Origin: a virus
DNA: 39,252 nucleotides
Virus genome (UHGV): UHGV-0390443
Strand: one strand, 5' to 3'
Part shown: piece after piece, positions 1-14,544 of the stretch
Position numbering within the stretch: the stretch's first letter is position 1
How the letters are laid out: the number at the start of each line of letters is the position of its first letter
Translations under genes and position numbers: made by a program
The notes under the pieces: generated by a model
The model's input: the letters and a program-made list of their open reading frames with translations, nothing else
Told to the model about the DNA's origin: nothing
Databases searched by the model: none

Positions 1-142
1 TTTTGGGATCATTCAACATCCCGTTTTTGGGATCATTCAACATCCCGTTTTTGGGTATATTCCCGTTTTCGGTAACATTACCGTTTTCGGGTTCATTACC
101 CCCTTCCCGGTTGCCTTTAATGTTCCCGTTTTTGGTTATATT
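1..142. repeat. Origin iterons: perfect 24-bp units CCCGTTTTTGGGATCATTCAACAT (copies at 39224..39247, 39248..19 across the junction, 20..43) followed by degenerate CCGTTTT(T/C)GG copies to about 142
   Basis: Direct tandem repeats visible in sequence; embedded in the initiator coding frame, as in lambda ori within gene O. Confidence 0.75.
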
Positions 143-397
143 AAGAGAGAAAACCCGCACTCTTTTCGTCGCTCCCTTTCTCTCTCCGGTATCTGAAATA
201 AGCCCCATTTTCATGAGCGATATAAGCCCGGCCTGCACGGTTTTTTTATTCAGGCAAGTGTCTTTAACGAGGCGTTCTATGCTGGGGTAGCAGAGGTTAT
301 ATTCATCGGCTCTGTCAGCCATCGAGAGCAGTATGAGCTTTAATGATGAGCTGCCTGGATCTGTCTCCCAGGCCCAATCTGTTGCATGTCTGCTCAT
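1..397 (-). CDS. Replication initiator, lambda O-like, N-terminal part; gene crosses the circular junction and continues in 38810..39252
   Basis: Manual minus-strand translation: ATG at 397..395 preceded by GGAGA (spacing 6); N-terminus MSRHATDWAWETDPGSSSLKLILLSMADRADEYNLCYPSIERLVKDTCLNKKTVQAGLISMLKMGLISDTGERKG (winged-helix-like initiator domain); frame stays open through the iterons (encoding repeated PKNGMLND) to position 1, in phase with ORF 38810..39247; in-frame stop upstream at 412..410. Confidence 0.7.
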   Translation of the reverse strand, partial: MSRHATDWAWETDPGSSSLKLILLSMADRADEYNLCYPSIERLVKDTCLNKKTVQAGLISLMKMGLISDTGERKGATKRVRVFSLNITKNGNIKGNREGGNEPENGNVTENGNIPKNGMLNDPKNGMLNDPK

Positions 398-412
398 GAT
401 TAATCTCCGCTA

Positions 413-612
413 TCAGCTTGAGTGTTGTGGGGAGGAATTAATCATGATCTGCTTAATCTCTGCCCTGATGCGACGGTTTGATTCCATGGTGCACTCAACA
501 CAGTGTCCGTTGTAAACCCAGCGTTCACTGTCATGTCCGTGCTTACATTGTTTTCCGGTGTAATAGCGTTTAAGTCCGCGCTTTGCGGCATCAATACGTG
601 TAATGATTTCCA
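413..612 (-). CDS. Small zinc-finger-like protein (C-x3-H ... C-x2-C), about 66 aa
   Basis: ORF track 413..682; likely start at internal ATG 612 (MEIITRIDAAKRGLKRYYTGKQCKHGHDSERWVYNGHCVEC...); sits between Cro-like gene and initiator. Confidence 0.5.
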
Positions 613-693
613 TGGTAAGCCCTGTTATTAGTATTGGGATTACGGTCATTTTGTGCTGACACAAAAAAAAGATCAACCACATTTGGTTTTTTA

Positions 694-708
694 TTACCTT
701 TGAGGTGC
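694..708. promoter_or_regulatory. Operator-like dyad TTACCTTTGAGGTGC (imperfect member of TTACCT-N4-GGTAA family)
   Basis: Matches family consensus in 14 of 15 core positions; intergenic, upstream of zinc-finger gene on minus strand. Confidence 0.45.
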
Positions 709-709
709 G

Positions 710-742
710 AATAGATATGAAAAGACCGCCGGATGGCGGTCT
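710..742 (-). terminator. Putative intrinsic terminator after Cro-like gene (tR1-like position)
   Basis: Stem AGACCGCC/GGCGGTCT (723..742) with loop GGAT; minus-strand downstream tract TTTCATAT. Confidence 0.45.
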
Positions 743-763
743 ACAGAGGGTTGTGGCTGGATA

Positions 764-994
764 TCATGAGTAGAAGAAGTATGCCAGTTCTGCTTTTGAG
801 CGCAGCCATTGTCTTGTTTTACAGGCTTTAAAAAGCCCATTCATCAATACCTTACCTGGCATTTTGCGCTTACCTGTTAAGTGAGTCTGGATATAGTGAC
901 TCGTCGTTCCGGCTTCCTGTGCGAAGGCTTCACGCTCATCCGGAGTAAGTGCAAGCCAGTGCTTTTTGAAATCGAAATGTCCGTTATCGCTCAT
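764..994 (-). CDS. Cro-like HTH DNA-binding protein (first gene of minus-strand early operon)
   Basis: 76-aa ORF; HTH-like segment FAQEAGTTSHYIQTHLTGKR; divergent from repressor across operator-containing intergenic region. Confidence 0.6.
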   Translation of the reverse strand: MSDNGHFDFKKHWLALTPDEREAFAQEAGTTSHYIQTHLTGKRKMPGKVLMNGLFKACKTRQWLRSKAELAYFFYS

Positions 995-1061
995 AGCTAT
1001 TGCCTGATATTTATTTCAGATAATAAATATTCACCCATAAGGTAACAAAAATCAAGGATAG

Positions 1062-1093
1062 TTACCTATGGGGTGCATTTACCTGTTGGGTAA
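1062..1093. promoter_or_regulatory. Tandem operators in the switch region: TTACCTATGGGGTGC (1062..1076) and TTACCTGTTGGGTAA (1079..1093), centres 17 bp apart
   Basis: Dyad-symmetric sites between divergent genes 764..994(-) and 1149..1733(+); also flanked by GGTAAC...GTTACC inverted repeat 1041..1066. Confidence 0.6.
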
Positions 1094-1148
1094 TATTGCT
1101 TTAAATTGAATCATCTACTGATTCATATATGAGGCGATTTTCCAGAAA

Positions 1149-1733
1149 ATGAAAAGTATCCAGGACGTCCGCAGGCAAAATCTCAACGACTTGATCGACC
1201 GTGAATTCAATGGTGTTCAGACGCGGATGGCAGAAAAACTTGGAACTCAGGCAAATCTGGTAAACCGCTGGGCTCTTGGCAAGAAGGTTATCGGCGACCA
1301 GGTTGCGCGAAAAATTGAAGCTGCCGCCAATAAACCCCGTAACTGGCTTGATATCGATCGCTCGCTTTCTCAGGAAGGTTTTCAGCCTGTCGGCCCAAGC
1401 GACATTGGTCAGCTGGCGGCTCACAACCTGGAACGCTGGATGAGCGAAAGCCGCGACCTTTCAACACAGGGAAAACTTCACCGCGCATCCGGCGTCGCCC
1501 AGGTGACAATCAGCCGCCTGTTAAACAATGAGGTCAGCGTTTCCATTTCCACCCTGGAGAATGTTGCATCCGCATTCGGGCGTCACGGCTATGAATTACT
1601 GATTCACCCGCACGACCCTGCGACCATCAACTATGACCGCTCGCGCTACGCATTGTTACCCGAAACCGAGAAAGCAAAGATCGAAAGTTACATTGAATTT
1701 GTCATCAACCAGAACGAAAAAAACAAACAATAA
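1149..1733 (+). CDS. Phage repressor-like regulator with two HTH modules (CII/XRE-like N-terminal HTH plus second HTH); no LexA-like peptidase domain evident
   Basis: 194-aa ORF; motifs QTRMAEKLGTQANLVNRWALGKK and LHRASGVAQVTISRLLNNEVSVSISTLENVASAFG; CI-like position (divergent from Cro-like gene, followed by terminator). Confidence 0.65.
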   Translation: MKSIQDVRRQNLNDLIDREFNGVQTRMAEKLGTQANLVNRWALGKKVIGDQVARKIEAAANKPRNWLDIDRSLSQEGFQPVGPSDIGQLAAHNLERWMSESRDLSTQGKLHRASGVAQVTISRLLNNEVSVSISTLENVASAFGRHGYELLIHPHDPATINYDRSRYALLPETEKAKIESYIEFVINQNEKNKQ

Positions 1734-1753
1734 AATCATATTTTTCAGTAAGT

Positions 1754-1779
1754 AAGCCGCCTTCTGGCGGCTTTTTTAT
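1754..1779 (+). terminator. Rho-independent terminator after repressor gene
   Basis: AAGCCGCC-TTCT-GGCGGCTT followed by TTTTATT. Confidence 0.75.
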
Positions 1780-1790
1780 TGCCTGCGCAA

Positions 1791-1867
1791 TTACCTTAAG
1801 GGTAATTTTTTTAACTCATATCTATTGACACCAAACCAAATACGCATAATTATTACCTCAACGGTAA
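1791..1867. promoter_or_regulatory. Early plus-strand promoter region with two operators: TTACCTTAAGGGTAA (1791..1805) and TTACCTCAACGGTAA (1853..1867), flanking TTGACA at 1825..1830
   Basis: Perfect dyads; -35-like hexamer between them; immediately upstream of RBS GAGGTGA and ATG 1887. Confidence 0.6.
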
Positions 1868-1886
1868 CAGACCGAGGTGACAAGTT

Positions 1887-2039
1887 ATGCAGTGGAAAAT
1901 CATCAACGGTTGGTACTGCGTTACTGCATGCGGATTCATGAGCTGGAAGTTCCGCACCTTACAGGAAGGCATTAAGTGGGCTTTCGTCAGCAAAGAAGCT
2001 CGCGATGTGGCCAACGATAACGAGATATGGGAGGGCTGA
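1887..2039 (+). CDS. Small hypothetical protein (50 aa)
   Basis: ATG 1887 with strong RBS GAGGTGA at 1874..1880; not in ORF track (below 60 aa); MQWKIINGWYCVTACGFMSWKFRTLQEGIKWAFVSKEARDVANDNEIWEG. Confidence 0.45.
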   Translation: MQWKIINGWYCVTACGFMSWKFRTLQEGIKWAFVSKEARDVANDNEIWEG

Positions 2040-2041
2040 TA

Positions 2042-2341
2042 ATGAACGTTAATCAGCAGAAAAATCTTCAAAAAATCATGCTGGCATTCGACAAGGACTA
2101 CCGCCTGTCAGAACAGCTATATGACCGACAAGTTGAACTGATTGAGAGTATCCGGCTTCATCAACTGGCATCAACTTTCGACGTTGTAACAGTTAAAGGC
2201 GTTCGCCAGGAAGTACTGGAGGCCGCTAAAGACAGCCCTGAGTTCGAAGAACTAATGGATGCCTACCGGCGCGAGGCAATGGCAATTATCGCCCGCTGGG
2301 ATCTGGCTGATCAGATTGATGGGCAGAGGGACGCGGCATGA
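2042..2341 (+). CDS. Hypothetical early protein (99 aa)
   Basis: ORF track 2027..2341; ATG 2042 preferred (RBS GGGAGGG 2029..2035); translationally coupled to downstream exonuclease. Confidence 0.55.
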   Translation: MNVNQQKNLQKIMLAFDKDYRLSEQLYDRQVELIESIRLHQLASTFDVVTVKGVRQEVLEAAKDSPEFEELMDAYRREAMAIIARWDLADQIDGQRDAA

Positions 2342-3159
2342 ATCCGGGAATTTATTTCGATATCAGCAACGAGGACTACCACGCCGGTGACGGCGTGAGT
2401 AAGTCGCAGCTAGATATGGTGGCTAAGAACCCTGCCCTTCTGAAATGGGTGAAGGCTGCTCCGGAAGACGAAGAGAAGAAGTCTGCACTGGACATGGGTA
2501 CTGCTCTGCACTGTCTGCTTCTGGAACCTGGAGAGTTTGACAAACGCTTCATCGTTTCACCGAAATTCGATCGTCGGACAAAACAAGGTAAAGCTGACGA
2601 AGAGGCATTTATTCGTGATGTAGCGGATATGGGGATTTCGGTACTTGATGCAGAGCAGTGGCGAAAACTGGAGCTGATGCGTGATAGCGCAATGGCTCAC
2701 CCGGCGGCACGCTGGATGTTGGAAGCACCTGGTTACTGCGAAGCATCAATGTACTGGAACGATGAAGATACGGGTGAGTTGTGCCGAATTCGTCCAGACA
2801 AATGGCTGAACGAGCACAACGTGATCGTCGACGTGAAAAAGGTTGCAGATATGGACCGTTTTGCACGCCACATCGAGGAGTTCCGCTACCACGTGCAGGA
2901 CGCAATGTACCGCGAAGGCGCAATGAGGGTTACTGGTCAGCCACATGGTTTTTTCTTTCTTGCCGTGAGCGAAAGCATTGATTGTGGTCGGTATCCGGTA
3001 CGCGTGTTCGAGCTGGATGCGCCGGATGTCGATGCCGGGCACGCTCTGTTCCGCCGGGATCTGAATACCTATCACGAATGCCGCATCAACGATGAGTGGG
3101 GCGGAGTGGAAATTATTAAACGCCCTGACTGGGCACGTAAACAGGATATGTACGTATGA
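2338..3159 (+). CDS. Recombination exonuclease, PD-(D/E)XK fold (RecE/exonuclease VIII-like partner of RecT)
   Basis: 273 aa; ATGA overlap with upstream and downstream genes; motifs GTALHCLLLEP and DVKKVADM; immediately upstream of RecT-family gene. Confidence 0.7.
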   Translation: MNPGIYFDISNEDYHAGDGVSKSQLDMVAKNPALLKWVKAAPEDEEKKSALDMGTALHCLLLEPGEFDKRFIVSPKFDRRTKQGKADEEAFIRDVADMGISVLDAEQWRKLELMRDSAMAHPAARWMLEAPGYCEASMYWNDEDTGELCRIRPDKWLNEHNVIVDVKKVADMDRFARHIEEFRYHVQDAMYREGAMRVTGQPHGFFFLAVSESIDCGRYPVRVFELDAPDVDAGHALFRRDLNTYHECRINDEWGGVEIIKRPDWARKQDMYV

Positions 3160-4037
3160 GCAATGATATCGCAATCACATCACAACCAGGCGCAACTGTA
3201 GGTACTGCTGCGGCAATCTTCAGCCCGGAGGGCATGAATCAACTGGTGCGTTTCGCGGAGTTGATGTCACAAAGCAAAGCGACTGTACCGAAACATCTTG
3301 AAGGCAAACCTGCCGATTGTCTGGCGGTGACCATGCAGGCGGCACAGTGGGGAATGAATCCTTTCGCCGTGGCGCAGAAAACGCATGTGGTAAACGGAAC
3401 GTTAGGCTACGAAGCACAGTTGGTAAACGCGGTCGTATCCTCTTCCAGCCTGCTAGCGACACGCCTGAATTATCGCTGGAGCGGTGACTGGTCGAATGTT
3501 AACGGCAAAACAGATAAATCACCGAATCTGACGGTAACTGTGTCAGCAGTTCTTAAAGGAGAAGCAGAACCCCGTGAGCTTACCATCAGTATGGCGCAAG
3601 CCGGAGTGCGTAACTCTCCATTGTGGGAACAGGATCCGCGCCAGCAGCTTGCCTATCTTTGCACGAAACGATGGGCTCGCCTGCACGCTCCTGATGTACT
3701 TCTCGGTGTTTACACCCCTGACGAATTACAGGAAACGGCACCGCGCGTTGAGCGAGACATTACTCCGCAAACGACCACTGCTGCGGGAATGAACAGTCTG
3801 ATCAACGCTAAACCAGCGAAAAAGCCTGATGAGCAAACGCGTAAAGCGGATAGCCGTGATCCAGAAGAAATGCTGATGGCCTTTACCAGCGCAGCGATGA
3901 ATTACAGCACTGTCTCCGAACTGGATAAGGCTTACAAATACATTGCACAAAAACTTTCAGATGATGACGAACTGCTGGCAAAAGCCACCGACGTTTACAG
4001 CGTTCGTCGGGAAGAATTAAACGAAACATCTATGTAA
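3156..4037 (+). CDS. recT: RecT-family single-strand annealing recombinase
   Basis: 293 aa; RecT-like core (AVTMQAAQWGMNPFAVAQKTHVVNG...); ATGA coupling to exonuclease. Confidence 0.75.
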   Translation: MSNDIAITSQPGATVGTAAAIFSPEGMNQLVRFAELMSQSKATVPKHLEGKPADCLAVTMQAAQWGMNPFAVAQKTHVVNGTLGYEAQLVNAVVSSSSLLATRLNYRWSGDWSNVNGKTDKSPNLTVTVSAVLKGEAEPRELTISMAQAGVRNSPLWEQDPRQQLAYLCTKRWARLHAPDVLLGVYTPDELQETAPRVERDITPQTTTAAGMNSLINAKPAKKPDEQTRKADSRDPEEMLMAFTSAAMNYSTVSELDKAYKYIAQKLSDDDELLAKATDVYSVRREELNETSM

Positions 4038-4086
4038 CCACCACCGCGGCGCCACGCGCGCCGCACTGCAACCAAGAGAGGTATTT

Positions 4087-4335
4087 ATGAAAGGTGCATT
4101 AGGTAAGAAGGAACTCCTGGCGGTGGTGCCACTGTCATGGAGCACTATCGACCGTATGGAGCGCGCAGGGGAATTTCCTAAACGCTGGTATATCACCGAT
4201 AAACGCTGCGCATGGAACCGTGATGAAGTTGAGCGTTGGCTTGATGAACGTCAGGCAGCAAGCCCGGCAGAGTTCCAGGGTAAAAAACCTCCTGTTCAGC
4301 AACGTGTATATCGTCCCGTGAGCAACGCGGCATGA
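4087..4335 (+). CDS. AlpA/Xis-like small DNA-binding protein
   Basis: 82 aa; ELLAVVPLSWSTIDRMERAGEFPKRWYITDKRCAWNRDEVERWLDE resembles AlpA-family HTH; RBS AGAGAGG upstream. Confidence 0.7.
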   Translation: MKGALGKKELLAVVPLSWSTIDRMERAGEFPKRWYITDKRCAWNRDEVERWLDERQAASPAEFQGKKPPVQQRVYRPVSNAA

Positions 4336-4444
4336 GTGTGCTGCTAAGGCACTGGAGCAAATGGTCAGGATGGTACTTATTCCTGGCCTCTGTTTCTGCA
4401 TGGCTTTATCTGCTGGCATTAATTTTCAGAGAGGGTTGGATTAA

Positions 4445-4744
4445 GTGAGAAAGTTAAGCCGACTTGAAAAATATCACATGAACAAGGTTTCAATGCGCAG
4501 CCCTTCAAAGGTTGTTGCCGTTACTCCTGCGGCGATAGAGATCGAAAAACGCGCGATTGAAAGAGAGAAAAAAGGGCAGTTCCGCATTGCCGCCCACCTT
4601 TGGCTTCAGTGTATGGATGTTGCTTCTGGTGATGTTGAGCGTGCAAGGATCGCGGTTCGCAGGGACCAATGTATCACAAAAGGTAACGGCCTTCGCCGTG
4701 GCGACTATAGCGGCATAGGATGTTGCGGGGTGGTTTATGACTAA
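4445..4744 (+). CDS. Hypothetical protein; start uncertain (GTG 4445, or ATG 4493 with AAGG RBS)
   Basis: ORF track; overlaps start of methyltransferase. Confidence 0.45.
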   Translation: MRKLSRLEKYHMNKVSMRSPSKVVAVTPAAIEIEKRAIEREKKGQFRIAAHLWLQCMDVASGDVERARIAVRRDQCITKGNGLRRGDYSGIGCCGVVYD

Positions 4745-5387
4745 GAAATACACACTAATCTATGCAGATCCACCCTGGGTATACCGGGACAAAGCCGCAG
4801 ATGGTAATCGCGGTGCCGGTTTTAAATATCCGGTTATGAGTGTGCTGGATATCTGCCGCCTTCCTGTGTGGGATTTGGCCGATGAAAACTGTCTGTTGGC
4901 CATGTGGTGGGTGCCAACACAACCACTCGAAGCACTAAAAGTTGTTGAAGCCTGGGGATTCCGTCTGATGACCATGAAGGGCTTCACGTGGATAAAATGT
5001 GGTAGTCGACAACCAGATAAACTGGTTATGGGTATGGGACACATGACTCGCGCCAATAGTGAAGATTGCCTGTTTGCAGTAAAGGGAAAACTACCTCCGC
5101 GCATTAATGCAGGGATCGTTCAGTCATTTACCGCACCGCGGCTTGAGCATTCAAGAAAACCAGATGTCGTTCGTGAAAAACTTGTGCAATTGTTAGGCGA
5201 TGTTTCTCGCATTGAACTGTTCGCCCGCCAGTCGTCTCATGGCTTCGATGTTTGGGGTAATCAGTGCGAAGACCCGGCAGTGCAACTACACCCTGGATAC
5301 GCATTGGATATTGCCAGATTAACAAATGCATTCAGCAATGCTCCGCTGTCACCAACAGACAACCAGGGGCGGGAGCGTGCAGCATGA
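4737..5387 (+). CDS. MT-A70 family N6-adenine DNA methyltransferase
   Basis: 216 aa; catalytic DPPW motif (LIYADPPWVY) near N-terminus. Confidence 0.85.
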   Translation: MTKKYTLIYADPPWVYRDKAADGNRGAGFKYPVMSVLDICRLPVWDLADENCLLAMWWVPTQPLEALKVVEAWGFRLMTMKGFTWIKCGSRQPDKLVMGMGHMTRANSEDCLFAVKGKLPPRINAGIVQSFTAPRLEHSRKPDVVREKLVQLLGDVSRIELFARQSSHGFDVWGNQCEDPAVQLHPGYALDIARLTNAFSNAPLSPTDNQGRERAA

Positions 5388-5578
5388 ACAGGGCATCACC
5401 AGCAGATTTAAGGAAATGCCTTGAAACTGCAAACATGCTTGCACACAGCGGGATCAGGTTTGTTCCAGTTCCCGCTGTCACTGATGCTGAATTTGCAACG
5501 CTGTCAGCAATATTCGCAGACAAAATTGAATCACTGGCAGCAGAAGCCGAGATGGAAGAAAATCAGCAGAATAATTAA
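5384..5578 (+). CDS. Hypothetical small protein (64 aa)
   Basis: ATG 5384 overlapping methylase stop; ORF track 5264..5578 uses a non-ATG upstream start. Confidence 0.45.
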   Translation: MNRASPADLRKCLETANMLAHSGIRFVPVPAVTDAEFATLSAIFADKIESLAAEAEMEENQQNN

Positions 5579-5581
5579 ACG

Positions 5582-6832
5582 TTATTCCCCCGCCATCCAC
5601 TTCTCAAACTTCGACGGGGAGAACGGAATCAGATCCGTATGCTCCCCGTTAATCCAGGAATCAATCATATCGGCCCACTGCTGCAACATGTAGGCGCGCT
5701 GTCTGGCGTATTCCGCTTTGTTATATACGGCGCGCACACCTTTCTGCTCATGTGCCAGAGCCTTTTCAATCCAGTCTGAAGGATAACCAGCCTCATGCAA
5801 CAACGTACTGGCTGTACGGCGCATATCGTGTACGGTGAAGTCCTGAATATGCTCACCATCTTCATTTATTATTTTCACCGTTCTGTCGATCAGAGAGTTC
5901 AGCGCGGCATTAGATAATGGCTTCCGGAAATTGTAACGACCAGGAACCAGATATTCACTTCCACCAGCGCACATCTGCAACCCGACCAATATATCCTGTG
6001 CCTGTTTAGGCAGGTAAATAACGTGCGCCCGGCTTCCCTTCATACGGTCTGAAGGAATTGTCCATGTCCATTTTTTAAAATCTATTTCATCCCACGTTGC
6101 ATTGGTGAATTCGCCTTTACGAACCATAGTGATAAGCACCAGCTTTAAAGCCATTTTCATAGTGCCCATAGCGCCAATGGCATCCAACGTGCGGAAGAAC
6201 AGGCCAATTTCTTCTGGTGTCAGTGTTCGCTCTCGTGGTTTAAATATGGCGATAGACGAAGGTTTAATGTCAGCCGCAGGATTAAACAAACCATGACCAC
6301 GGTCATTGGCGTGACGGTATACGCTGCTGATGATCTCCCGGGCCTGCACTGCTGTTGCCCGGCCACCGCGTTCGACAATCCGGTCACACAAATCACGAAC
6401 CATCGATGTGGTAATTTCAGCCATCATTTTGTTGCCAAGAACCGGAAGTATGTCACGGTCGATCACCGCCTGCTTCATTGCGCGGGTACTTTCAGCCAGG
6501 ATGACGTGTTTCATATAACTGTCGGTATGTACCGCAAATGTCTCGGCACCACGAATCTTTTTGATACCGTCACGTTTAGCCGCAGCCGGCGACTGGCCTG
6601 CTTTAAGCAGCTTCTTTGCAGCAATCAGTTCTTCCCGCGCTTCTGCCAGGCTGATACCGTCACGCCCATACTGCCCGATTACCAGTGTTTCGCGGCGACC
6701 GTTGATACGGTAGTCATAGCGAAACGAGACCGTACCTGACGTAAGCACAGCTACATACAGCCCGTCACGATCGGAAACTTTGTACAGTTTGTCCTGTGGC
6801 TTGAGGTTCTTTAATTTTGTATCGGTAAGCAC
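5582..6832 (-). CDS. int: Tyrosine integrase (P4-like, with N-terminal arm-binding domain)
   Basis: 416 aa; N-terminus LTDTKLKNLKPQDKLYKVSDRDGLYVAV; C-terminal catalytic region HDMRRTASTLLHEAGY...RAVY; GTG start. Confidence 0.9.
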   Translation of the reverse strand: MLTDTKLKNLKPQDKLYKVSDRDGLYVAVLTSGTVSFRYDYRINGRRETLVIGQYGRDGISLAEAREELIAAKKLLKAGQSPAAAKRDGIKKIRGAETFAVHTDSYMKHVILAESTRAMKQAVIDRDILPVLGNKMMAEITTSMVRDLCDRIVERGGRATAVQAREIISSVYRHANDRGHGLFNPAADIKPSSIAIFKPRERTLTPEEIGLFFRTLDAIGAMGTMKMALKLVLITMVRKGEFTNATWDEIDFKKWTWTIPSDRMKGSRAHVIYLPKQAQDILVGLQMCAGGSEYLVPGRYNFRKPLSNAALNSLIDRTVKIINEDGEHIQDFTVHDMRRTASTLLHEAGYPSDWIEKALAHEQKGVRAVYNKAEYARQRAYMLQQWADMIDSWINGEHTDLIPFSPSKFEKWMAGE

Positions 6833-6860
6833 AATTCACCCGTATAGAAACCATTTTCAT

Positions 6861-6896
6861 GACGGTATGAGAGTATACCTTTAAGGTAATACCGTC
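6861..6896. promoter_or_regulatory. Int-proximal nested palindrome GACGGTAT...ATACCTTTAAGGTAA...ATACCGTC (contains an operator-family site at 6875..6889)
   Basis: 8-bp inverted repeat 6861..6868 / 6889..6896 enclosing a dyad site; immediately upstream of int start. Confidence 0.4.
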
Positions 6897-6954
6897 ACCT
6901 GTACCGCCGAAAAATATGGTGTAGAGTGAATAGAAATGAATACATAAAAACAAA

Positions 6955-6980
6955 AAACCCTCTGTAAAAACAGAGGGTTA
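6955..6980 (-). terminator. Rho-independent terminator ending the late operon (after spanin genes)
   Basis: Stem CCCTCTG/CAGAGGG with loop TAAAAA; minus-strand downstream tract TTTTTGTTTTT. Confidence 0.7.
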
Positions 6981-7150
6981 AATTAGTATCTGAATAGGAA
7001 TGAGTTGCTATGAGTTAGCTGTTAATCATTCCCACTCAATTATTTACGAAAACCATAACCAATTGACTGATAACAACTTTCCTCAACCTAATTTTCACCG
7101 TACCGTTTTATATACCGTCACCGGAAATCAGTACCATGAAAAATGCCATG

Positions 7151-7633
7151 CTATCTTGTCAGGGTGTCATACTGTTTTTCGCAGACTCTTCCGGCTGCGG
7201 CTGCCCGGTCAGCATACTCTGCCAGTTGTCTGTTTCTCTCGAGAGATTTGCTGAGCACGTCGGCAAGCAAAACTCCGGTGTCTGCGGCTGACGTCCCAGC
7301 GCCGACAATGGCGTTATACTGCCTGAGCTGCTCACGGATGGCAAAGAGTTGTTGCTGCAACCTGCCAGCGCGAGCGGCAGCATCAAGAGCATCATTGCGC
7401 GCCTGGTCGATCCTCTGCTGAGCTTCACGTTCATTGGCCACTTTCTCCTGTTCGTAGTACTGACGAACTTTGTCTTCTTCGGCTTTGCGGTCTTCTTCCG
7501 CCTGCGCATACCCGGCATCGTACTGGCGACTGCCGTGTATATTCCAGGCAACCACTCCGACGATGAACAGAGCAGCAAGCATCAACACAATAAGCATCTG
7601 TTTCCAATATGCTTTTACGAATGCCCAGATCAT
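7151..7633 (-). CDS. Rz-like inner-membrane spanin (i-spanin)
   Basis: 160 aa; N-terminal TM segment then charged coiled-coil region; last gene of lysis cassette. Confidence 0.7.
7159..7434 (-). CDS. Rz1-like outer-membrane lipoprotein spanin (o-spanin), embedded in the i-spanin gene in another frame
   Basis: Within ORF 7159..7578; start at internal Met giving [26 protein letters not shown] (signal peptide with lipobox LAGC), Pro-rich mature region. Confidence 0.6.
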   Translation of the reverse strand: MNVKLSRGSTRRAMMLLMLPLALAGCSNNSLPSVSSSGSITPLSALGRQPQTPEFCLPTCSANLSRETDNWQSMLTGQPQPEESAKNSMTP

Positions 7634-8259
7634 ATAGCCAGCACCTTACTGGCAGTGACGTACCGCGCGCGCCGGTCGTCGATGCCGTTCCTGCCACCAT
7701 TGATAATCAGAGTTACACGTGCAATATCACCGGTATACTTCATGCATCCTTTGCTGGCAAAGAACCACGCCGCGCTACGAGCCGCGTATTCGTCCTGCGC
7801 CAGCAGTTCAGGATTCTCCAGCAAGTCCACTTTCAAGCCGTTTCCGCAGTCACGATAGTTATTCAAACCGGTAATCTGGATAAGTCCGCGACCTCGGTAA
7901 TTCCAGCCATCGCCGGGAGCATTGTTCCCCATGCGTTTGCTGTACACCAGATTGGCAATCGCTCTCTGGCGCTCAGGTGGCAATGGTGGTTCACCAGCAC
8001 GGCGCCCCAATGCGTTGGCCTGTCCCTGAGTGAGACGCCCAGCCCGAACGAAGTTAGCCAGTCCGCTGACGCTGTAGTTGAAATTTTCCTGCAACCGGGT
8101 GAAGCCTCCAGACTCATGCCCGACCTGAGCAATAAACATTGCCTGATCTTCTGGTTTGCTGATATCAAACTCTTTCATCGCAGAAGTTATATGCGAGAAC
8201 CAGCGTGCGGCCAGCGCCTCGCTAATACCAGCAGCTCGCTGGAATTGTTTAATCTCCAT
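7630..8259 (-). CDS. Endolysin, glycoside hydrolase family 19 (chitinase-like lysozyme)
   Basis: 209 aa; motif [22 protein letters not shown]. Confidence 0.85.
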
Positions 8260-8557
8260 GTTTAGACCTCGTTATTTTGAAAATCTGAACGACGTTACCG
8301 CGAGTTTTAAGAACCGCAGCAAGCATGACAGCGTTGATAATGACCTCAGATAAATCCACAGCCATTGGCGTGCGTAACCAGATTGCATAGACGACACGAA
8401 CAGGAATACTGGCCGCAGCAACAATAAGGAAATAAGCAAGCCACCCTCCCCATCTTCGGTGTTGTGAACCGTTACGCCGGAATGTGACAACACGAATTGC
8501 TATGCCAGTACAAATAAGTGCATTGGTGATAAGCAAAACAAGCTCATTAGTTACCAT
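8249..8557 (-). CDS. Small membrane protein, holin or antiholin candidate
   Basis: 102 aa with 2-3 hydrophobic segments; between holin-like gene and endolysin. Confidence 0.5.
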
Positions 8558-8957
8558 CGCCTTTTCTCCCCGGAATTAACTCGCGTGGATTATCGGAACG
8601 GTGATAGAGCCAGATGCCAATTCGAACTGCGACGATTGCTGACACGAATGCACCAGCAGAGAAAACAATCCCTTTCTCAAACGAGTCCTGCGTAATGGTA
8701 GGGATCAGGCTGGCTATGCCGATAAGAATTGATGCTGCTGGTTTGTAAAAGAGAAGGCCGCAAAGAAAGCTAAGCATCGACAGGAGCACCCGTCGGCGAA
8801 TCGGATATTCGACAGCAGAGGTAACAAAAATTACCGCACCAGACAAAGAACCCAAAGCAACCTCCGGAGGAACACCTGCTATCACCGCAGCAAGAGACCC
8901 CATACTAAGCCACTGATTTAATGTTTCACTGGTTAGTTGAGCAGACATGTTTTTCAC
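8547..8957 (-). CDS. Holin-like multi-pass membrane protein
   Basis: 136 aa, several hydrophobic helices; first gene of lysis cassette. Confidence 0.55.
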   Translation of the reverse strand: MKNMSAQLTSETLNQWLSMGSLAAVIAGVPPEVALGSLSGAVIFVTSAVEYPIRRRVLLSMLSFLCGLLFYKPAASILIGIASLIPTITQDSFEKGIVFSAGAFVSAIVAVRIGIWLYHRSDNPRELIPGRKGDGN

Positions 8958-9214
8958 CGTTTATGTACATTAAAACCATAAGAAAAGAGAATAACACATT
9001 AAACCATAAATGGTTTTTTGTTACCTTGCAACAATTTGTGAAATAAATGAAACACAAAACAATAATAAATAAACAGCAGGAGATATTTAAAAGATGGAAT
9101 TTAACATATATTAAATATAAGCATGTGATAAGCAGAACGCCTATTTATTCGCATGACAACACATTATATTGACAGATATTTATTGGTAAATACAGAGCAT
9201 GTATTTTAAGTAAA

Positions 9215-9235
9215 CCTGCGCTATAACAGCGCAGG
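9215..9235 (-). terminator. Hairpin just downstream of tailspike gene (possible terminator or attenuator)
   Basis: CCTGCGC-TATAACA-GCGCAGG; minus-strand downstream TTTACTT; within AT-rich 8958..9263 spacer. Confidence 0.4.
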
Positions 9236-9263
9236 TCAACAATTATAAAAAAAGAAATTTAAT

Positions 9264-11804
9264 TCATTTTTTTACATTGCCATTTTCAATGGCTAAAATT
9301 CTCTTTTCCATATTATCAATTCTCTCCCAGCATTGCTGAATTGATTTAACAATAGGCGGGATGAATTCATCGTAACCAAGTGAGTAAACATCATCCCCAC
9401 CATTTTTCAAGTGATGCTGTAGTCCACCGAACTCAACACCTAATTCTTCACACAGTTTCAATACGTCCTGTGCAATAAACCAGTGATGGTATCGTTGACG
9501 TTTTTTACTGCCGTCAGGAGTTTTCTGCACTACTTCAAGATATTTTTCTTCGACATTCTCAATAGCTGATATAGTAATTCCATCAACATCTCGTTCTACT
9601 TTTTTTGGTACAATTCTTGTTTTTTCAATAACATCAACATAATCATCACGCATATCCCAGCGACCATCGACAGGACGAAGCCCAAGGATAAATTCAATCC
9701 CCAGCAAGGTATCTCGGATATCTGTTTTATCACGCGCATCAGATCTGTTTTGCACAGTTCCATATACATATGTCGTTGTGGAAGAATTGCCAAGCTGCAC
9801 CTGGTTACTTCCAGACACCCTTGCATCATTGCCAACAGTTGTTGTGTTGGTAAGTGATGATGTGCTTTCCCCTGATTGAGTTAATCTACCTGAATTATGT
9901 CCAATAGCCGTGTTTAATGCGCCGGTTGTATTTGTGACAAGAGAGCCAGACCCGATTGCAACGTTACTGCTTCCCGATGTTGTTCCTTTTAATGCCTGCT
10001 GTCCAACCGCAACATTATTATCACCCGTTGCTGCTATAAGTGCCATGTGACCAATAGAAACGGTAAATGAACCTAGCGTTTGAGTTTCACCGCATGCCCC
10101 ATAACCAATTACAACAACATTATCTGTAATTGTTGACTCGGTTGCCGCTCCAGCACCAATAACAACGCTTTCATTCCCGGCAAGATTCTTGCGCATTGCG
10201 AACATTCCAATGCCAACATTATCATGCCCAGTCCCTGTTCCTGCAGCCTCCGCAGCACCAAGACAGTTTCCTGCTCTGTAGCCAACCATGGTGTTATTTG
10301 AACCAATAGAGAAGTCTCCGGCAAAAGAGCCTACGTATACACTATTAGACTGTGAGTAATCTCCAGGATTTCCATTCGCCCGATATCCTACTGCAACTGT
10401 ATAAATAGTATCTGGAGCCTCAGCCATGGCCTCAAAGCCAACCCCAACGTTATATCTACCGCCCTTAACTTTTTCTCCTGCACCAAGTCCGAAGAATGAG
10501 TTATAGCTCCCGGTTGTTAGCCACTCGCCAGCAACAGAACCTACAGCAGTGTTTCCTGTTCCAGTACATCGATACAAAGTCAGGAAGCCAACTCCGGTAT
10601 TATTATTTCCTGAAATATTACTCATCAATGATTTTGACCCAATGGCAGTATTGTTAACACCATCGGTCAGATCCTGTAACGCTCGCGGGCCAAATGCTGT
10701 ATTATCGTAACCCTTTGGCGCTGTTGTTGGATCTGGTAACTCAGGGGTTAGTTTTTCACCACCACCACCATTGGCACAAAGATTGTAAGATCGAATAAAT
10801 TCAGCCACTGGCCCAAGTTTTAAATAACCATTGGCAATATTAATTCTGACACTTACATTAACTGAGCTACCAGGAGCTTCTATTGTCCTGTCATCAACCC
10901 AGGTAAAACTCTGTGGTATCCCGTCATAAGTTAATGTCACATCTCCTTTATCATTATAATTATAGAACAATGTATAACGCTCATTTATAGATTCAGAACC
11001 TGATGATCCTCCTCTCCTCCACCACTCTGCATTATCAAAAATAAGTAATCCCGGACCATAATATTTAGCTTTCTGTCCCAAAATCATAGGGCTTGATAAT
11101 CTCCATACCCCCTCAGGAACATATATATTGCTACTTATTCTTTCAGCATTATTAAAAGCAGTATCACATAGCTCGTCACCACCTTCTTTAGCTCCAAAGT
11201 CCAGAACACTGACAGTATCCCGCATCTTATCCTGGAACGTTCGATATACTGCTCCAGAACCATACTGAATAAACCAACCAAAACCACCAACAACCCCGGC
11301 GATTGCAGCATCGACATAATTACGCATTGAGCGATTATTTACAGCGTCCTGCTCAAGTGATGGATCTGCAAGGTTAGAAATTCTGTTTTGCTTTGCATCG
11401 TAATATTTTGCAAGCAAAGATGGTTTCATCAATGCACGTCTGAACCATCCAAAACATTGCTGGATCAGCATCGTCAGATAGTCAAAGGCATCTTCATGCA
11501 CCTCGGGGAAAAATTTTCCCTGATTACGAAGATCAGTCTCCTGCACCACATCAAGCACACGATCTATCGTAATTCGCCATCCAGCAGCAAGCGGCGACGG
11601 AAGAACAACAGAACCGCCACTATAAGTGCCCGCCCCAGTTACCATATAACCGGTATCCAGAACCAATTCTGTTACGTTCCCGTTCAGGTCAGACACCTGA
11701 ACAACCAGGTCGGATTTTTTGAAAATACGGAAGGTGTACGGGAATGATGTCGTAATGCCGTTACCGGTGTATTCGTTGTGGTCAACTTCGGTTGAGACCG
11801 TCAT
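9264..11804 (-). CDS. Tailspike / tail fibre with Gly-rich beta-helical repeats and C-terminal peptidase S74-type intramolecular chaperone domain
   Basis: 846 aa; central repeated NTA-x-G motifs; C-terminus SDARDKTDIRDTLLGIEFILGLRPV...DEFIPPIVKSIQQC typical of auto-cleaving chaperone domains. Confidence 0.8.
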   Translation of the reverse strand: MTVSTEVDHNEYTGNGITTSFPYTFRIFKKSDLVVQVSDLNGNVTELVLDTGYMVTGAGTYSGGSVVLPSPLAAGWRITIDRVLDVVQETDLRNQGKFFPEVHEDAFDYLTMLIQQCFGWFRRALMKPSLLAKYYDAKQNRISNLADPSLEQDAVNNRSMRNYVDAAIAGVVGGFGWFIQYGSGAVYRTFQDKMRDTVSVLDFGAKEGGDELCDTAFNNAERISSNIYVPEGVWRLSSPMILGQKAKYYGPGLLIFDNAEWWRRGGSSGSESINERYTLFYNYNDKGDVTLTYDGIPQSFTWVDDRTIEAPGSSVNVSVRINIANGYLKLGPVAEFIRSYNLCANGGGGEKLTPELPDPTTAPKGYDNTAFGPRALQDLTDGVNNTAIGSKSLMSNISGNNNTGVGFLTLYRCTGTGNTAVGSVAGEWLTTGSYNSFFGLGAGEKVKGGRYNVGVGFEAMAEAPDTIYTVAVGYRANGNPGDYSQSNSVYVGSFAGDFSIGSNNTMVGYRAGNCLGAAEAAGTGTGHDNVGIGMFAMRKNLAGNESVVIGAGAATESTITDNVVVIGYGACGETQTLGSFTVSIGHMALIAATGDNNVAVGQQALKGTTSGSSNVAIGSGSLVTNTTGALNTAIGHNSGRLTQSGESTSSLTNTTTVGNDARVSGSNQVQLGNSSTTTYVYGTVQNRSDARDKTDIRDTLLGIEFILGLRPVDGRWDMRDDYVDVIEKTRIVPKKVERDVDGITISAIENVEEKYLEVVQKTPDGSKKRQRYHHWFIAQDVLKLCEELGVEFGGLQHHLKNGGDDVYSLGYDEFIPPIVKSIQQCWERIDNMEKRILAIENGNVKK

Positions 11805-11908
11805 GTTAAATCTCCAGATAGTCGCAGCACCCGTTGCGCCGCATATCTGGTTATTCTATTACCTGAAAAACCACATATGGATAGAAAGACTATAAATACC
11901 AATAGATA

Positions 11909-11923
11909 TTACCTTTCGGGTGA
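11909..11923. promoter_or_regulatory. Operator-like dyad TTACCTTTCGGGTGA (imperfect)
   Basis: Family consensus match; upstream of LexA box and small antirepressor-like gene. Confidence 0.4.
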
Positions 11924-11960
11924 TTTGCAAAACGTGCTGGATAGCAAACAAATTATTTGC

Positions 11961-11980
11961 TACTGTATAAATATACAGTT
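11961..11980. promoter_or_regulatory. LexA (SOS) box TACTGTATAAATATACAGTT
   Basis: CTGT-N8-ACAG with AT-rich spacer, near-perfect to E. coli consensus TACTGTATATATATACAGTA; 20 bp upstream of ATG 12001. Confidence 0.75.
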
Positions 11981-12000
11981 ATTGCATGGAGAAGATAAGA

Positions 12001-12257
12001 TGCAGCAGTATCACTATCCACTGGAAGACGGATTTACCGAAAGGATTCACACGCCGGGAGGCGTCAGATCACTGGTGGAGGGATCGCACTTGATGAAATT
12101 ACTCCGGGATCTCGATAAGGATGGATTTAATGTCGATGGCCCACTTGCCGAACTGACTGCACTGATTAACTACGTCACCAGCTCACAGATGTCTATGCAG
12201 GATCTGCAAACACATCTCGACTATTGTGCCGAACAATTACGAAAGCAAACCAGATAA
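12001..12257 (+). CDS. Small antirepressor-like protein (paralog of the C-terminal domain of the downstream Bro-N antirepressor), putatively SOS-induced
   Basis: 85 aa from ATG 12001 (RBS GGAGAAG); HTPGGVRSLVEGSHLMKLLRDLDKDGFNVDGPLAELTALINYV aligns with HSPSGVLGLTEHSLLMNLLNQLQEDGHDVSGAAAELTTMFCYI of 12571..13263; ORF-track start 11877 rejected because the LexA box lies inside it. Confidence 0.6.
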
Positions 12258-12289
12258 GGTTTGCAATTACCAAGTGGAGTGCTTATATT

Positions 12290-12304
12290 TACCTTTGCGG
12301 TAAA
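12290..12304. promoter_or_regulatory. Operator TTACCTTTGCGGTAA
   Basis: Perfect family dyad, extended palindrome ATTTACC...GGTAAAT. Confidence 0.55.
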
Positions 12305-12570
12305 TTTACATCGCACTCCTCTTGTGCCATAGTAATCAGGCACTGGCAAAATCCAGTGCCGGGATTGGTCTCCCGGATTACTACAGAGGCACATATGCCG
12401 CATAAGCGGTTTTTTTATGTGTAAAGCGCACCTATTCTATGGTGGGCTGTGTGGGGGCACCGAAAGGTGCGCCGGGTTCCTTTGTAGCCGGTAAGACCAA
12501 CTCTGCACAGTTCACCACCATCTGATTGGTCTCAGCGGTGGTGATTAACCTAACTACAAAGGTGATCGCC

Positions 12571-13263: not shown

Positions 13264-13329
13264 CGGGCGGCGGCACAGGGATGTGCCTTTAAAATAATCA
13301 TTGGCGATGTGATGTAGATTCGCGTAATA

Positions 13330-13344
13330 TTACCTTAAAGGTAA
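13330..13344. promoter_or_regulatory. Operator TTACCTTAAAGGTAA overlapping a putative promoter (-10-like TAATAT 13325..13330)
   Basis: Perfect dyad 27 bp upstream of ATG 13371. Confidence 0.55.
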
Positions 13345-13370
13345 ACCATGTGTTTACATGAGGAGGAGAT

Positions 13371-13580
13371 ATGGGATTTTGGTTCGCTCGTACAAAAACG
13401 AGGGATAATGCACCCAGCCCTCAGGCAAAAAATGCAGAAGTTCCGGCGTCAGCGCAGGTTAACAAGCGTGGTGGAGTATATATCTCATCACAGCAAATTT
13501 CTGAGCTTCCTGAGGTTAAGGAGATGCGTCGTCTCGCTGCTGCAATTGTTAAACAGGATCTTGCCACTGTAAGGAAGTAG
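13371..13580 (+). CDS. Small soluble hypothetical protein (69 aa), first gene of a two-gene moron operon
   Basis: ORF with strong RBS GAGGAGGAG; stop overlaps start region of the membrane protein gene. Confidence 0.55.
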   Translation: MGFWFARTKTRDNAPSPQAKNAEVPASAQVNKRGGVYISSQQISELPEVKEMRRLAAAIVKQDLATVRK

Positions 13581-14446: not shown

Positions 14447-14447
14447 C

Positions 14448-14543: not shown

Positions 14544-14544
14544 G

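What the first reader, a model, noticed from the sequence alone, without database searches (positions are those of the whole stretch)
1..397. Window is a closed circular genome: replication initiator gene and 24-bp iteron array span the end-to-start junction
The final bases (…GATCCCGTTTTTGGGATCATTCAACATCCCGT) and the first bases (TTTTGGGATCATTCAACAT…) join to give three perfect in-phase copies of a 24-bp unit. The minus-strand reading frame of ORF 38810..39247 continues uninterrupted through position 1 up to an ATG at 397 with a good RBS, yielding a ~279-aa O-like initiator. The plus-strand ORF 3..290 in the track is a repeat artefact. Iterons embedded in the initiator reading frame mirror lambda ori.
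Basis: seen in the sequence. Interest (0 to 1): 0.55.

Follow-up and report, generated by a model that had tools for sequence, protein, structure and literature searches.

The report
Phage replication origin inside split initiator gene
The window is a complete phiV10-like temperate E. coli phage genome cut open inside its replication-initiator gene, and the repeats at the cut are very probably the phage's origin of replication: an ordinary lambda-style arrangement, correctly spotted.

Summary
Joining the window's end to its start gives an 86-nt stretch with a perfect 24-nt period. It also gives an uninterrupted minus-strand ORF (ATG at 397, stop at 38810) of 279 aa. That protein is identical to a protein annotated in complete E. 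coli chromosomes. The junction is contiguous in phiV10 and in prophages of 424 of 5426 complete E. coli genomes. The window is collinear all round with phiV10 (Uetakevirus).

The protein has a winged-helix N-domain (Pfam HTH_36), a disordered linker encoded by the repeats, and a DnaT-type ssDNA-binding C-domain. A lambda-P-family helicase-loader gene follows it.

The repeats share a palindromic core, GATCCCAAAAACGGGATC, close to lambda's iteron ATCCCTCAAAACGAGGGA. In 44 distant loci with the same N-domain, the core CC[AG]AAAACGG occurs 82 times just after that domain and twice elsewhere. In 11 of those loci it lies in more than one reading frame, so it is the DNA that is conserved.

- The circle is a map; relatives package permuted linear DNA.
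- The first and last 24 nt are identical, so the copy number (2 or 3) is unresolved.
- The protein is not a Pfam Phage_rep_O member.
- No strong AT-rich tract is present.
- Origin function is inferred, not tested.

This is a new member of a known kind, of low interest.

The parts
1..397 (-). 5' part of the replication-initiator gene (codons 1-132; ATG at 395-397). It encodes the winged-helix N-domain (aa 1-93, window 119-397) and the first part of the linker.
   Evidence: HTH_36 over aa 18-67, E 1.9e-10; AF2 pLDDT above 88 for aa 1-93.
38810..39252 (-). 3' part of the same gene (stop at 38810-38812). It encodes the rest of the disordered linker and the DnaT-type ssDNA-binding C-domain (aa 188-273, window 38831-39088).
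   Evidence: Pfam DnaT, E 1.2e-15; about 50% identical to E. coli DnaT 85-170; 4ou6, TM 0.9.
405..408 (-). Shine-Dalgarno GGAG, 7 nt upstream of the initiator ATG.
   Evidence: Read from the sequence. The same start is annotated in phiV10 and by PGAP in E. coli 2452.
39221..39252 (-). Iteron array, part before the junction. It holds the strong iteron GATCCCAAAAACGGGATC (core 39225-39234) and the first half of the iteron that spans the junction (core 39249..6).
1..135 (-). Iteron array, part after the junction. Strong iterons have cores at 21-30 and 45-54 (24-nt spacing). Weaker iterons have cores at 63-72, 81-90 (18-nt spacing) and 126-135.
39166..39220 (-). Conserved tract just downstream of the iterons, read in the sense of the gene. 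It contains AACCAGTCATAT / AACCAGTCATTT (12-nt repeats) followed by the purine-rich AACCAAGAGAGGGAGAGCAGGACAAAAACC. It is a candidate unwinding or loading region. It is only 55-60% A+T.
   Evidence: the tract belongs to the nearly invariant block of the gene across 62 distinct alleles; period-12 repeat at 39189-39217.
38028..38828 (-). Lambda-P-family helicase-loader gene. It probably starts at the GTG at 38811-38813, overlapping the initiator's stop codon as GTGA, as annotated in phiV10 and by PGAP. The longest ORF starts at the ATG at 38828.
   Evidence: Phage_lambda_P, E 1.7e-56.
413..613 (-). Small upstream gene in the same early operon, homologous to phiV10p42 (66 aa). It is Cys/His-rich.
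723..742 (-). Terminator-like hairpin between the cro-like gene (764-994, minus strand) and the replication genes. It corresponds to the terminator annotated in phiV10.
3..290 (+). Antisense shadow ORF. It is part of a 130-codon open frame that begins at 39150 in the circle. It is probably not a gene.
   Evidence: no PHROG match. (hydrophobic low-complexity product; the frame is open in all relatives, and its wobble positions coincide with those of the initiator frame).

Best explanation
The window is the complete genome of a phiV10-like temperate podovirus of E. coli (genus Uetakevirus). It is written as a circular permutation whose break falls inside the replication-initiator gene.

That gene (397 down to 1, then 39252 down to 38810, minus strand) encodes a two-domain initiator. 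The N-terminal winged helix is inferred to bind, probably as a dimer, the palindromic iterons GATCCCAAAAACGGGATC. There are four strong copies at 24-nt spacing if the ends abut, and three weaker copies further upstream in the gene. All lie in the DNA that encodes the protein's own disordered linker. This is the lambda ori-in-O arrangement.

The inferred mechanism runs as follows. Transcription of the early operon runs through the gene. Initiator molecules assembled on the iterons bend and open the neighbouring conserved tract. The C-terminal DnaT-type domain, which in host DnaT forms filaments on ssDNA, captures the opened strand and/or docks the lambda-P-like protein encoded just downstream. 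That protein then delivers host DnaB.

What is shown here: the contiguity of the junction, the intact gene, the domain content, and conservation of the repeats at the DNA level. What is inferred: binding, unwinding, helicase delivery, and origin function itself.
For: Contiguity and completeness:
- The junction aligns in one piece to phiV10 (98%) and six other phage records.
- It aligns full-length in 421 of 5426 complete E. coli genomes.
- The window is collinear all round with phiV10 and typing phage 10, and its two ends map to overlapping phiV10 coordinates 33796-33819.

The gene:
- The 279-aa product is identical to the prophage protein of E. coli 2452 and to P0024.
- It matches HTH_36 and DnaT domains and phrog_1032 'replication initiation protein' full-length.
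- The C-domain is about 50% identical to E. coli DnaT 85-170. The AF2 model matches 4ou6 at TM 0.9, and the N-domain resembles MarR/ArsR-type winged helices.
- A lambda-P-family gene lies directly downstream.

The iterons:
- The core occurs 7 times in the array (6 in the linear window, expected 0.18, plus 1 across the junction) and has no exact copy elsewhere in 39 kb.
- The core is palindromic with an A-tract, close to lambda's annotated iterons ATCCCTCAAAACGAGGGA.
- The array sits after the DNA-binding domain and before the C-domain, in a linker with pLDDT below 50, as in lambda O.
- Among 62 distinct alleles, the strong iterons plus the downstream tract form the three longest invariant runs of the gene. 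Third-codon positions vary at 1 of 39 sites there against 56 of 232 elsewhere (p = 0.001).
- In 44 loci from other genera with the same N-domain, CC[AG]AAAACGG occurs 82 times in the 320 nt after the domain and twice in the remaining ~226 kb counted over both strands. It is always on the coding strand. In 11 loci it lies in two or three reading frames, translated as PKNG, PKTE or QKR.
- Copy number varies in frame among relatives, from 1 to 5 units of 24 nt and 1 to 3 units of 18 nt. Iteron number also varies between lambda (4) and Stx phages (6) (PMC7466680).
- In-gene iterons are the rule for lambda O, P22 gene 18 and L gene 18 (PMC8022706).
Against: - No experiment on origin function was found for phiV10-like phages in the searchable literature.
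- There is no pronounced AT-rich unwinding element. The maximum is 70% A+T over 40 nt, and it lies upstream of the array. The downstream conserved tract is 55-60% A+T.
- Within the window itself all iteron spacings are multiples of 3. The DNA-versus-peptide argument therefore rests on relatives.
- Tyrion, which has a different N-domain but the same C-domain, shows no clear iteron array in its gene. In-gene iterons are thus not universal in the genus.
- The near-invariance of the strong iterons could owe something to recent spread or to homogenisation of repeats.
Confidence: 0.88

Rival explanations
1. The ends overlap rather than abut. The identical 24 nt at both ends are an assembler's end overlap (for example k-1 for k = 25). 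Under this reading the true circle is 39228 bp, with two full 24-nt units (three strong iteron cores) and a 271-aa initiator. Everything else stands.
For: - The first 24 nt equal the last 24 nt.
- The break lies inside the only strong tandem repeat, which has a 0.2% chance for a random cut. This is typical of graph-based assembly breaks.
- The public record KP869108.1 has a 130-nt terminal overlap over the same array.
- The 2-unit allele is the commonest among the IMG/VR relatives, 70 of 80.
- The exact 271-aa product exists in L022-L024.
Against: - Any cut inside a tandem array with at least one full period on each side gives identical 24-nt ends, so the identity carries no information by itself.
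- The exact 279-aa product is also common: P0024 on 39 contigs, and other 279-aa proteins at 100% BLASTP identity on 151-208 contigs, including complete chromosomes.
Confidence: 0.4
2. The repeats are only a protein-level low-complexity linker (NG-rich repeats) that expands and contracts by slippage. The real origin lies elsewhere in the genome.
For: - In the window all units are in one frame and encode PKNGMLND or ENGNVT.
- The segment is predicted to be disordered.
- No strong AT-rich tract is adjacent.
Against: - In relatives the same 10-nt core recurs in all three frames with different peptides.
- The core is palindromic and lambda-iteron-like.
- Synonymous sites in the strong iterons are nearly invariant.
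- The core is 660-fold enriched in that zone and strictly on one strand.
Confidence: 0.05
3. The window is not a complete circle. It would then be a fragment, a chimera, or a prophage excerpt whose ends resemble each other only because both happen to lie in copies of a repeat.
For: The only support is that the evidence for joining within the window itself is a 24-nt identity in a repeat.
Against: - The window ends map to overlapping coordinates of phiV10, and the order of all modules is preserved.
- The junction is contiguous in 7 phage records and more than 420 complete chromosomes.
- The size of 39.2 kb matches the genus (38.7-41.8 kb).
- A prophage excerpt would end at the att sites next to the integrase gene (5582-6832), not in the initiator gene.
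Confidence: 0.02

Closest known systems
Escherichia phage phiV10 gp43 (YP_512298, 'replication initiation protein', DnaT family) with gp44 (lambda P family); the same gene pair occurs in E. coli prophages integrated next to guaA (WP_117355252.1)
   Same: The gene is the same, at 97-100% protein identity, with the same neighbours, the same iteron array and the same genome architecture.
   Different: Only the copy number of the 24-nt unit differs (2 in phiV10, 3 or 2 here), along with the 12-nt unit (3 in phiV10, 2 here). No record examined annotates an origin in these phages.
Bacteriophage lambda ori inside gene O, with P downstream
   Same: - The iterons lie inside the initiator's own gene, in the linker-coding part after the DNA-binding domain.
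- The iterons are palindromic and contain an A-tract with a very similar sequence: ATCCCTCAAAACGAGGGA in lambda against GATCCCAAAAACGGGATC here.
- Spacing is about 20-24 nt.
- A P-family loader gene lies immediately downstream, and both genes belong to an early operon.
   Different: - The N-domain scores as HTH_36, not Phage_rep_O, and BLASTP finds no similarity to O.
- The C-domain is DnaT-like rather than lambda O's C-domain.
- The palindrome is 16-18 nt, with a spacer 2 nt shorter.
- There are seven sites instead of four.
- No marked AT-rich tract is present.
DopC/DopE of Cellvibrionales and Oceanospirillales (PMC5509034)
   Same: The initiator-like protein has the same architecture, HTH_36 plus a DnaT C-terminal motif, and sits next to a lambda-P-like protein.
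   Different: DopC/DopE are domesticated chromosomal genes, and that paper reports no iterons in dopC. Here the gene is in a phage and carries iterons.
E. coli DnaT (replication-restart primosome; PDB 4ou6, 6aep, 9zbt)
   Same: The C-terminal ssDNA-binding domain is about 50% identical (aa 188-273 against DnaT 85-170). That domain forms a helical filament on ssDNA (PMC13377028).
   Different: There is no DnaT N-terminal domain. The NCBIfam DnaT equivalog scores 84.9 against a cut-off of 201. Localisation here would be by sequence-specific iteron binding rather than by PriA/PriB.
P22 gene 18 and phage L gene 18 initiators
   Same: Both are lambdoid initiators whose own coding region holds family-specific iterons (PMC8022706).
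   Different: The iteron sequences differ, and the partner is a DnaB-type helicase (gp12) rather than a P-type loader.

Membership tests
Lambda O family (Pfam PF04492 Phage_rep_O) | N-terminal Phage_rep_O DNA-binding domain | tested here: not met
   Pfam reports only HTH_36 and DnaT for this protein. Lambda O scores Phage_rep_O at 5.7e-36. BLASTP of the two proteins gives nothing significant. HHpred-level relatedness of HTH_36 initiators to the O N-terminus is reported in PMC5509034 but was not tested here.
Lambda-type origin (ori within the initiator gene) | Several direct repeats of a palindromic initiator-binding site inside the initiator's coding region | tested here: met
   Seven cores lie in gene nt 263-425, and four of them are palindromic 18-mers. 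The conservation is at the DNA level.
Lambda-type origin (ori within the initiator gene) | AT-rich unwinding tract adjacent to the iterons | tested here: inconclusive
   The downstream conserved tract is only 55-60% A+T and purine-rich. The richest 40-nt window (70%) lies upstream of the array.
Lambda-type origin (ori within the initiator gene) | P-family helicase-loader gene immediately downstream | tested here: met
   Phage_lambda_P, E 1.7e-56, at 38028-38828 on the minus strand.
Lambda-type origin (ori within the initiator gene) | The initiator binds the iterons and the fragment supports replication | not testable with these tools
   This needs EMSA or footprinting and a plasmid replication assay.
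phrog_1032 / PGAP 'DnaT-like ssDNA-binding domain-containing protein' (HTH_36 + DnaT-CTD phage initiators) | Full-length match with both domains | tested here: met
   phrog_1032 matches residues 1-277 of 281 profile positions, E 3.3e-113. HTH_36 and DnaT domains are both found. Identical or 99% identical proteins are named this way.
Host primosomal protein DnaT (NCBIfam NF002770 equivalog) | Full-length DnaT, including the N-terminal oligomerisation domain, above the curated cut-off | tested here: not met
   The score is 84.9 against a cut-off of 201, and only profile positions 86-169 are matched.
Genus Uetakevirus (phiV10 / epsilon15-like podoviruses) | Genome-wide collinearity and nucleotide similarity to phiV10 | tested here: met
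   Identity is 90-98% over most of the genome in the same gene order. Mosaic replacements lie at 8977-11681, 13274-21678 and 34766-37495.
Circular (complete) genome | The ends are contiguous in the source DNA | tested here: inconclusive
   Contiguity is shown in relatives and through the intact joined gene. The reads of this assembly are not available, so the copy number at the join (2 or 3) is unresolved.

The most novel reading that the evidence does not exclude
The initiator may be a hybrid machine. An origin-specific winged helix would place the protein on iterons, and a DnaT-type C-domain would then polymerise on the opened strand, as host DnaT does in replication restart. This would replace the need for a strongly AT-rich unwinding element and would hand the strand to P-DnaB. 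Under this reading the in-frame gain and loss of iterons (1-5 units among relatives) would tune origin strength or incompatibility between co-resident prophages. The same iteron core, CC[AG]AAAACGG, would serve one N-domain family across several orders of Gammaproteobacteria, and it also turns up in two MAG loci labelled Desulfovibrio and Halieaceae.
Probability: 0.25. Interest if true: 0.45.

Novelty: new member of a known kind. Interest (0 to 1): 0.2.

Why it matters
For annotation, the window should be rotated so that the initiator gene is intact. As linearised, gene callers produce a truncated 145-aa 'DnaT' ORF and a spurious antisense ORF. The public record KP869108.1 shows the same defect.

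For biology, the result places the probable origin of phiV10-like phages, which are used as O157 reporter and typing phages and are common E. coli prophages. It also gives a simple 10-nt signature for locating origins in a wide family of HTH_36 initiators. The principle, iterons inside the initiator gene with a P-type loader downstream, has been textbook knowledge since lambda.

Tried and rejected
- Substitution pattern by codon position, to decide between the initiator frame and the antisense ORF 3..290. This was uninformative, because the two frames share wobble positions.
- A search for an own iteron array in Tyrion's initiator, which has a different N-domain. Only a 10-nt repeat present twice (TCCCTGATCC) was found, so that phage does not support N-domain/iteron co-variation.
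- A search for a lambda-like AT-rich tract. None is convincing.
- A profile-based locus search with a 19-sequence full-length alignment failed because no stretch was conserved enough. It succeeded with a 9-sequence N-domain alignment.
- Literature searches for phiV10/epsilon15 origins and for the core sequence itself. Nothing relevant turned up. The hits to the core were papillomavirus E2 sites and primers. Perry 2009 and Kropinski 2007 did not come up in these searches (Perry 2009 only as a citation) and I did not read them, so I cannot exclude that they mention these repeats.
- GATC clustering in the array (4 sites in 72 nt) was considered as a regulatory feature. The GATC comes from the flanks of the core, and those flanks differ in distant relatives, so it is not a family feature.
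- The Foldseek search confirmed that the N-domain is a generic winged helix, with only weak E-values (0.01 or higher). It did not link the domain to a particular initiator structure.

Full report
**1. What is in the sequence**

The window ends in ...GGATCCCGTTTTTGGGATCATTCAACATCCCGT and begins with TTTTGGGATCATTCAACATCCCGTTTTTGGG. Abutting the ends gives three perfect copies of GGGATCATTCAACATCCCGTTTTT, at 39233-4, 5-28 and 29-52. They lie inside an 86-nt stretch of perfect 24-nt periodicity, 39222..55.

Read on the minus strand, the frame is open from the ATG at 395-397 to the TGA at 38810-38812. A GGAG at 405-408 lies 7 nt upstream of the ATG. The product is 279 aa.

The 10-nt core CCRAAAACGG occurs six times in the linear window and a seventh time across the junction. 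All seven are in this array and on the same strand. Shuffles give 0.18 expected.

Any cut inside a tandem array gives this. It is also what an assembler's end overlap looks like. A random cut would fall inside the 86-nt periodic stretch with probability 0.002, so the position of the break is almost certainly assembly-driven. The public record KP869108.1 has a 130-nt terminal overlap over the same array. The copy number at the join (3 if abutted, 2 if overlapped) therefore cannot be settled without the reads. Both joins keep the frame. Both products exist exactly elsewhere: the 279-aa product is P0024 and the prophage protein of E. coli 2452, and the 271-aa product is found in L022-L024.

**2. 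Is the window a closed circle?**

- The first 8 kb is 96-97% identical to Escherichia phage phiV10 and its relatives in the genus Uetakevirus.
- A 2000-nt sequence built across the junction aligns in one piece to phiV10 (98%), PAS61, phiv142-3 and others.
- A 648-nt junction sequence aligns over at least 80% of its length in 421 of 5426 complete E. coli genomes, at up to 99.2%.
- The whole window is collinear with phiV10. Its two ends map to overlapping phiV10 coordinates, 33819 and 33796.
- In E. coli 2452 the prophage sits next to guaA, with the integrase gene at the end of the prophage. The initiator gene is intact in the middle of the prophage, 840 nt long and annotated as a 'DnaT-like ssDNA-binding domain-containing protein'. 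A prophage excerpt would therefore not end where the window ends.

The window is a complete genome written as a circular permutation. The circle is a map and, by inference, also the intracellular replicative form. Tyrion, a member of the genus, is reported as circularly permuted with a terminally redundant contig (PMC5754475). The phiV10 large terminase is annotated as PacB-like.

**3. The protein**

- Pfam finds HTH_36 (aa 18-67, E 1.9e-10) and the DnaT DNA-binding domain (aa 192-260, E 1.2e-15).
- PHROGs gives a full-length match to phrog_1032, 'replication initiation protein' (E 3e-113), and partial matches of the N-half to several 'replication initiation O-like' families.
- The C-domain (aa 188-273) is about 50% identical to E. 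coli DnaT 85-170. However, the NCBIfam DnaT equivalog is far below its cut-off, 84.9 against 201.
- An AlphaFold2 model built from a 19-sequence alignment shows a confident winged helix (aa 1-93), a linker with pLDDT below 50 (aa 94-187) and a confident three-helix C-domain. The C-domain superposes on the DnaT-ssDNA structure 4ou6 at TM 0.9. The N-domain resembles MarR/ArsR-type winged helices only generically.
- The next gene downstream (38028-38828, minus strand) belongs to the lambda P family (E 1.7e-56). In relatives its start overlaps the initiator's stop codon.
- Lambda O itself scores as Phage_rep_O and shows no BLASTP similarity to this protein.

'O-like' is thus true of architecture and genomic context, but not of Pfam family membership. 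The same HTH_36 plus DnaT-C architecture next to a P-like protein has been described for the domesticated DopC/DopE pair, where no iterons were found (PMC5509034).

**4. Are the repeats a DNA element or only a repetitive peptide?**

In the sense of the gene, the cores start at gene nt 263, 308, 326, 344, 368, 392 and 416. The spacings are 45, 18, 18, 24, 24 and 24 nt. The last four cores are embedded in palindromes of the form GATCCCAAAAACGGGAT(C/G). Lambda's four annotated iterons read ATCCCTCAAAACGAGGGA, ATCCCCTAAAACGAGGGA, ATCCCTCAAATTGGGGGA and ATCCCTCAAAACAGGGGG. The design is the same: ATCCC and GGGAT arms around an A-tract.

The array encodes aa 88-142, in the disordered linker. Lambda's iterons (O-gene nt 349-433) likewise begin just after the end of the Phage_rep_O match (aa 22-115).

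Three further lines of evidence point to a constraint on the DNA itself.

(a) Conservation among close alleles. Among 62 distinct 816-nt alleles from IMG/VR, the three longest invariant runs of the gene are contiguous (nt 345-460). They cover the strong iterons and the tract downstream of them. Third-codon positions vary at 1 of 39 sites there against 56 of 232 elsewhere (Fisher p = 0.001).

(b) Conservation in distant loci. In 44 loci from other genera that encode the same N-domain, the exact core CC[AG]AAAACGG occurs 82 times in the 320 nt after the domain. These genera include Superficieibacter, Vibrio, Providencia, Proteus, Pseudoalteromonas, Rheinheimera, Neptuniibacter and a Desulfovibrio MAG, among others. 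The core occurs only twice in all the remaining sequence counted over both strands, and within the zone it is always on the coding strand.

(c) Reading-frame independence. In 11 of those loci the copies are 17, 23 or 25 nt apart and lie in two or three reading frames. The same DNA is then translated as PKNG, PKTE or QKR. A peptide repeat cannot explain this.

Loci whose N-domain is below about 50% identity lack this core and show other repeats in the linker. This is what co-evolution of initiator and iterons predicts, but I did not analyse those repeats further. Tyrion, which has another N-domain on the same C-domain, has no clear array.

**5. Polymorphism**

The 24-nt unit is present in 1 copy (BP9), 2 copies (phiV10, PAS61 and 70 of 80 IMG/VR loci) or 3, 4 and 5 copies. 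A 311-aa variant was also found. The 18-nt unit varies from 1 to 3 copies and the 12-nt unit from 2 to 3. All changes are in frame. Iteron number also differs between lambda (4) and Stx phages (6), with functional consequences (PMC7466680).

**6. Mechanism (inferred)**

By analogy with lambda, the initiator would assemble on the iterons and bend them. The neighbouring conserved tract would open. That tract holds the AACCAGTCAT(A/T)T repeats followed by a purine-rich run (39166-39220). The P-like protein would then deliver host DnaB.

The DnaT-type C-domain forms a helical filament on ssDNA in the host preprimosome (PMC13377028). It is therefore a candidate for capturing the opened strand, for docking P, or for both.

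The arrangement departs from lambda in that no strongly AT-rich tract is present. The downstream tract is 55-60% A+T, and the richest 40-nt window (70%) lies upstream of the array. None of these steps has been tested. I found no experimental work on origins of phiV10-like phages in the searchable literature, and I did not read the original phiV10 and epsilon15 papers (they did not come up in these searches).

**7. The antisense ORF 3..290(+)**

In the circle this ORF is part of a 130-codon open frame that starts at 39150. It encodes a hydrophobic low-complexity sequence with no PHROG match. It stays open in all relatives, and its wobble positions coincide with those of the initiator frame, so conservation cannot decide whether it is a gene. 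Its TTG start at position 3 is an effect of the window's edge.

**8. Verdict**

The finding is correct in observation and in its main interpretation, but it describes an ordinary arrangement. This is a lambda-style origin inside the initiator gene of a known phage type. The gene is already annotated in relatives as a replication initiation protein. The useful additions are:

- the caveat about copy number at the join;
- the family assignment (HTH_36 plus DnaT C-domain, not Phage_rep_O);
- the family-wide, frame-independent conservation of the iteron core.

Novelty: a new member of a known kind. Interest: 0.2.

Noticed in passing
L002 (KP869108.1) 1-130 and 39105-39234: The public record of E. 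coli O157 typing phage 10 carries a 130-nt exact terminal duplication over the same iteron array. Its 'dnaT' CDS (38707-39180) is a truncated call of the split initiator gene, the same artefact as in this window.
   Followed up: partly
window 7, 31, 39221, 39235: Four GATC sites fall within 72 nt of the strong iterons, one in a palindrome arm of each. The phage encodes an MT-A70-family adenine methyltransferase at 4737-5387(+). GATC is not conserved in the iteron flanks of distant relatives.
   Followed up: partly
window 4-52 (+): On the plus strand each 24-nt unit reads as a hairpin, GGGAT-N8-ATCCC, followed by TTTTT. The scan scored it as terminator-like, antisense to the initiator gene. The arms alternate with the iteron palindrome, so the array could form alternative hairpins when single-stranded.
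   Followed up: no
window 8977-11681, 13274-21678, 34766-37495: These segments have no megablast match to phiV10. They include an 846-aa tailspike-like protein (9264-11804, minus strand) with a weak match to the endosialidase chaperone domain. They also include two very large virion proteins, of 1129 aa and 915 aa, where phiV10 has three genes of different sizes. Part of the nin-like region is also replaced. No megablast match was seen to the phiV10 oac (O-acetyltransferase) region at 23636-24652.
   Followed up: partly
window 31228-31304 (+): A tRNA-Arg (anticodon TCT) lies on the opposite strand to the flanking packaging (31968-33443, minus) and portal-side (28900-30579, minus) genes. It is also annotated in typing phage 10 and in the E. 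coli 2452 prophage.
   Followed up: no
L094, L097, L108, L115, L118, L128 (gene nt about 250-540): In distant relatives the iteron core CC[AG]AAAACGG is spaced 17, 23 or 25 nt apart and is read in all three frames (PKNG, PKTE, QKR). The last copy is nearly always followed by a conserved ...NG(T/I/V)QN(Q/L)S(L/V)EP peptide.
   Followed up: partly
L009 (Tyrion) 1058-1825: Tyrion's initiator has an unrelated N-terminal domain fused to the same DnaT-type C-domain and followed by the same P-like gene. This shows modular exchange of the origin-recognition half within the genus. No clear iteron array was seen in that gene.
   Followed up: partly
L118 gene nt 299-474: Some relatives' iterons read ACCGAAAACGGTAC. 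This matches the papillomavirus E2 binding-site consensus ACCGNNNNCGGT and explains the hits in the literature search. It is presumably coincidence.
   Followed up: no
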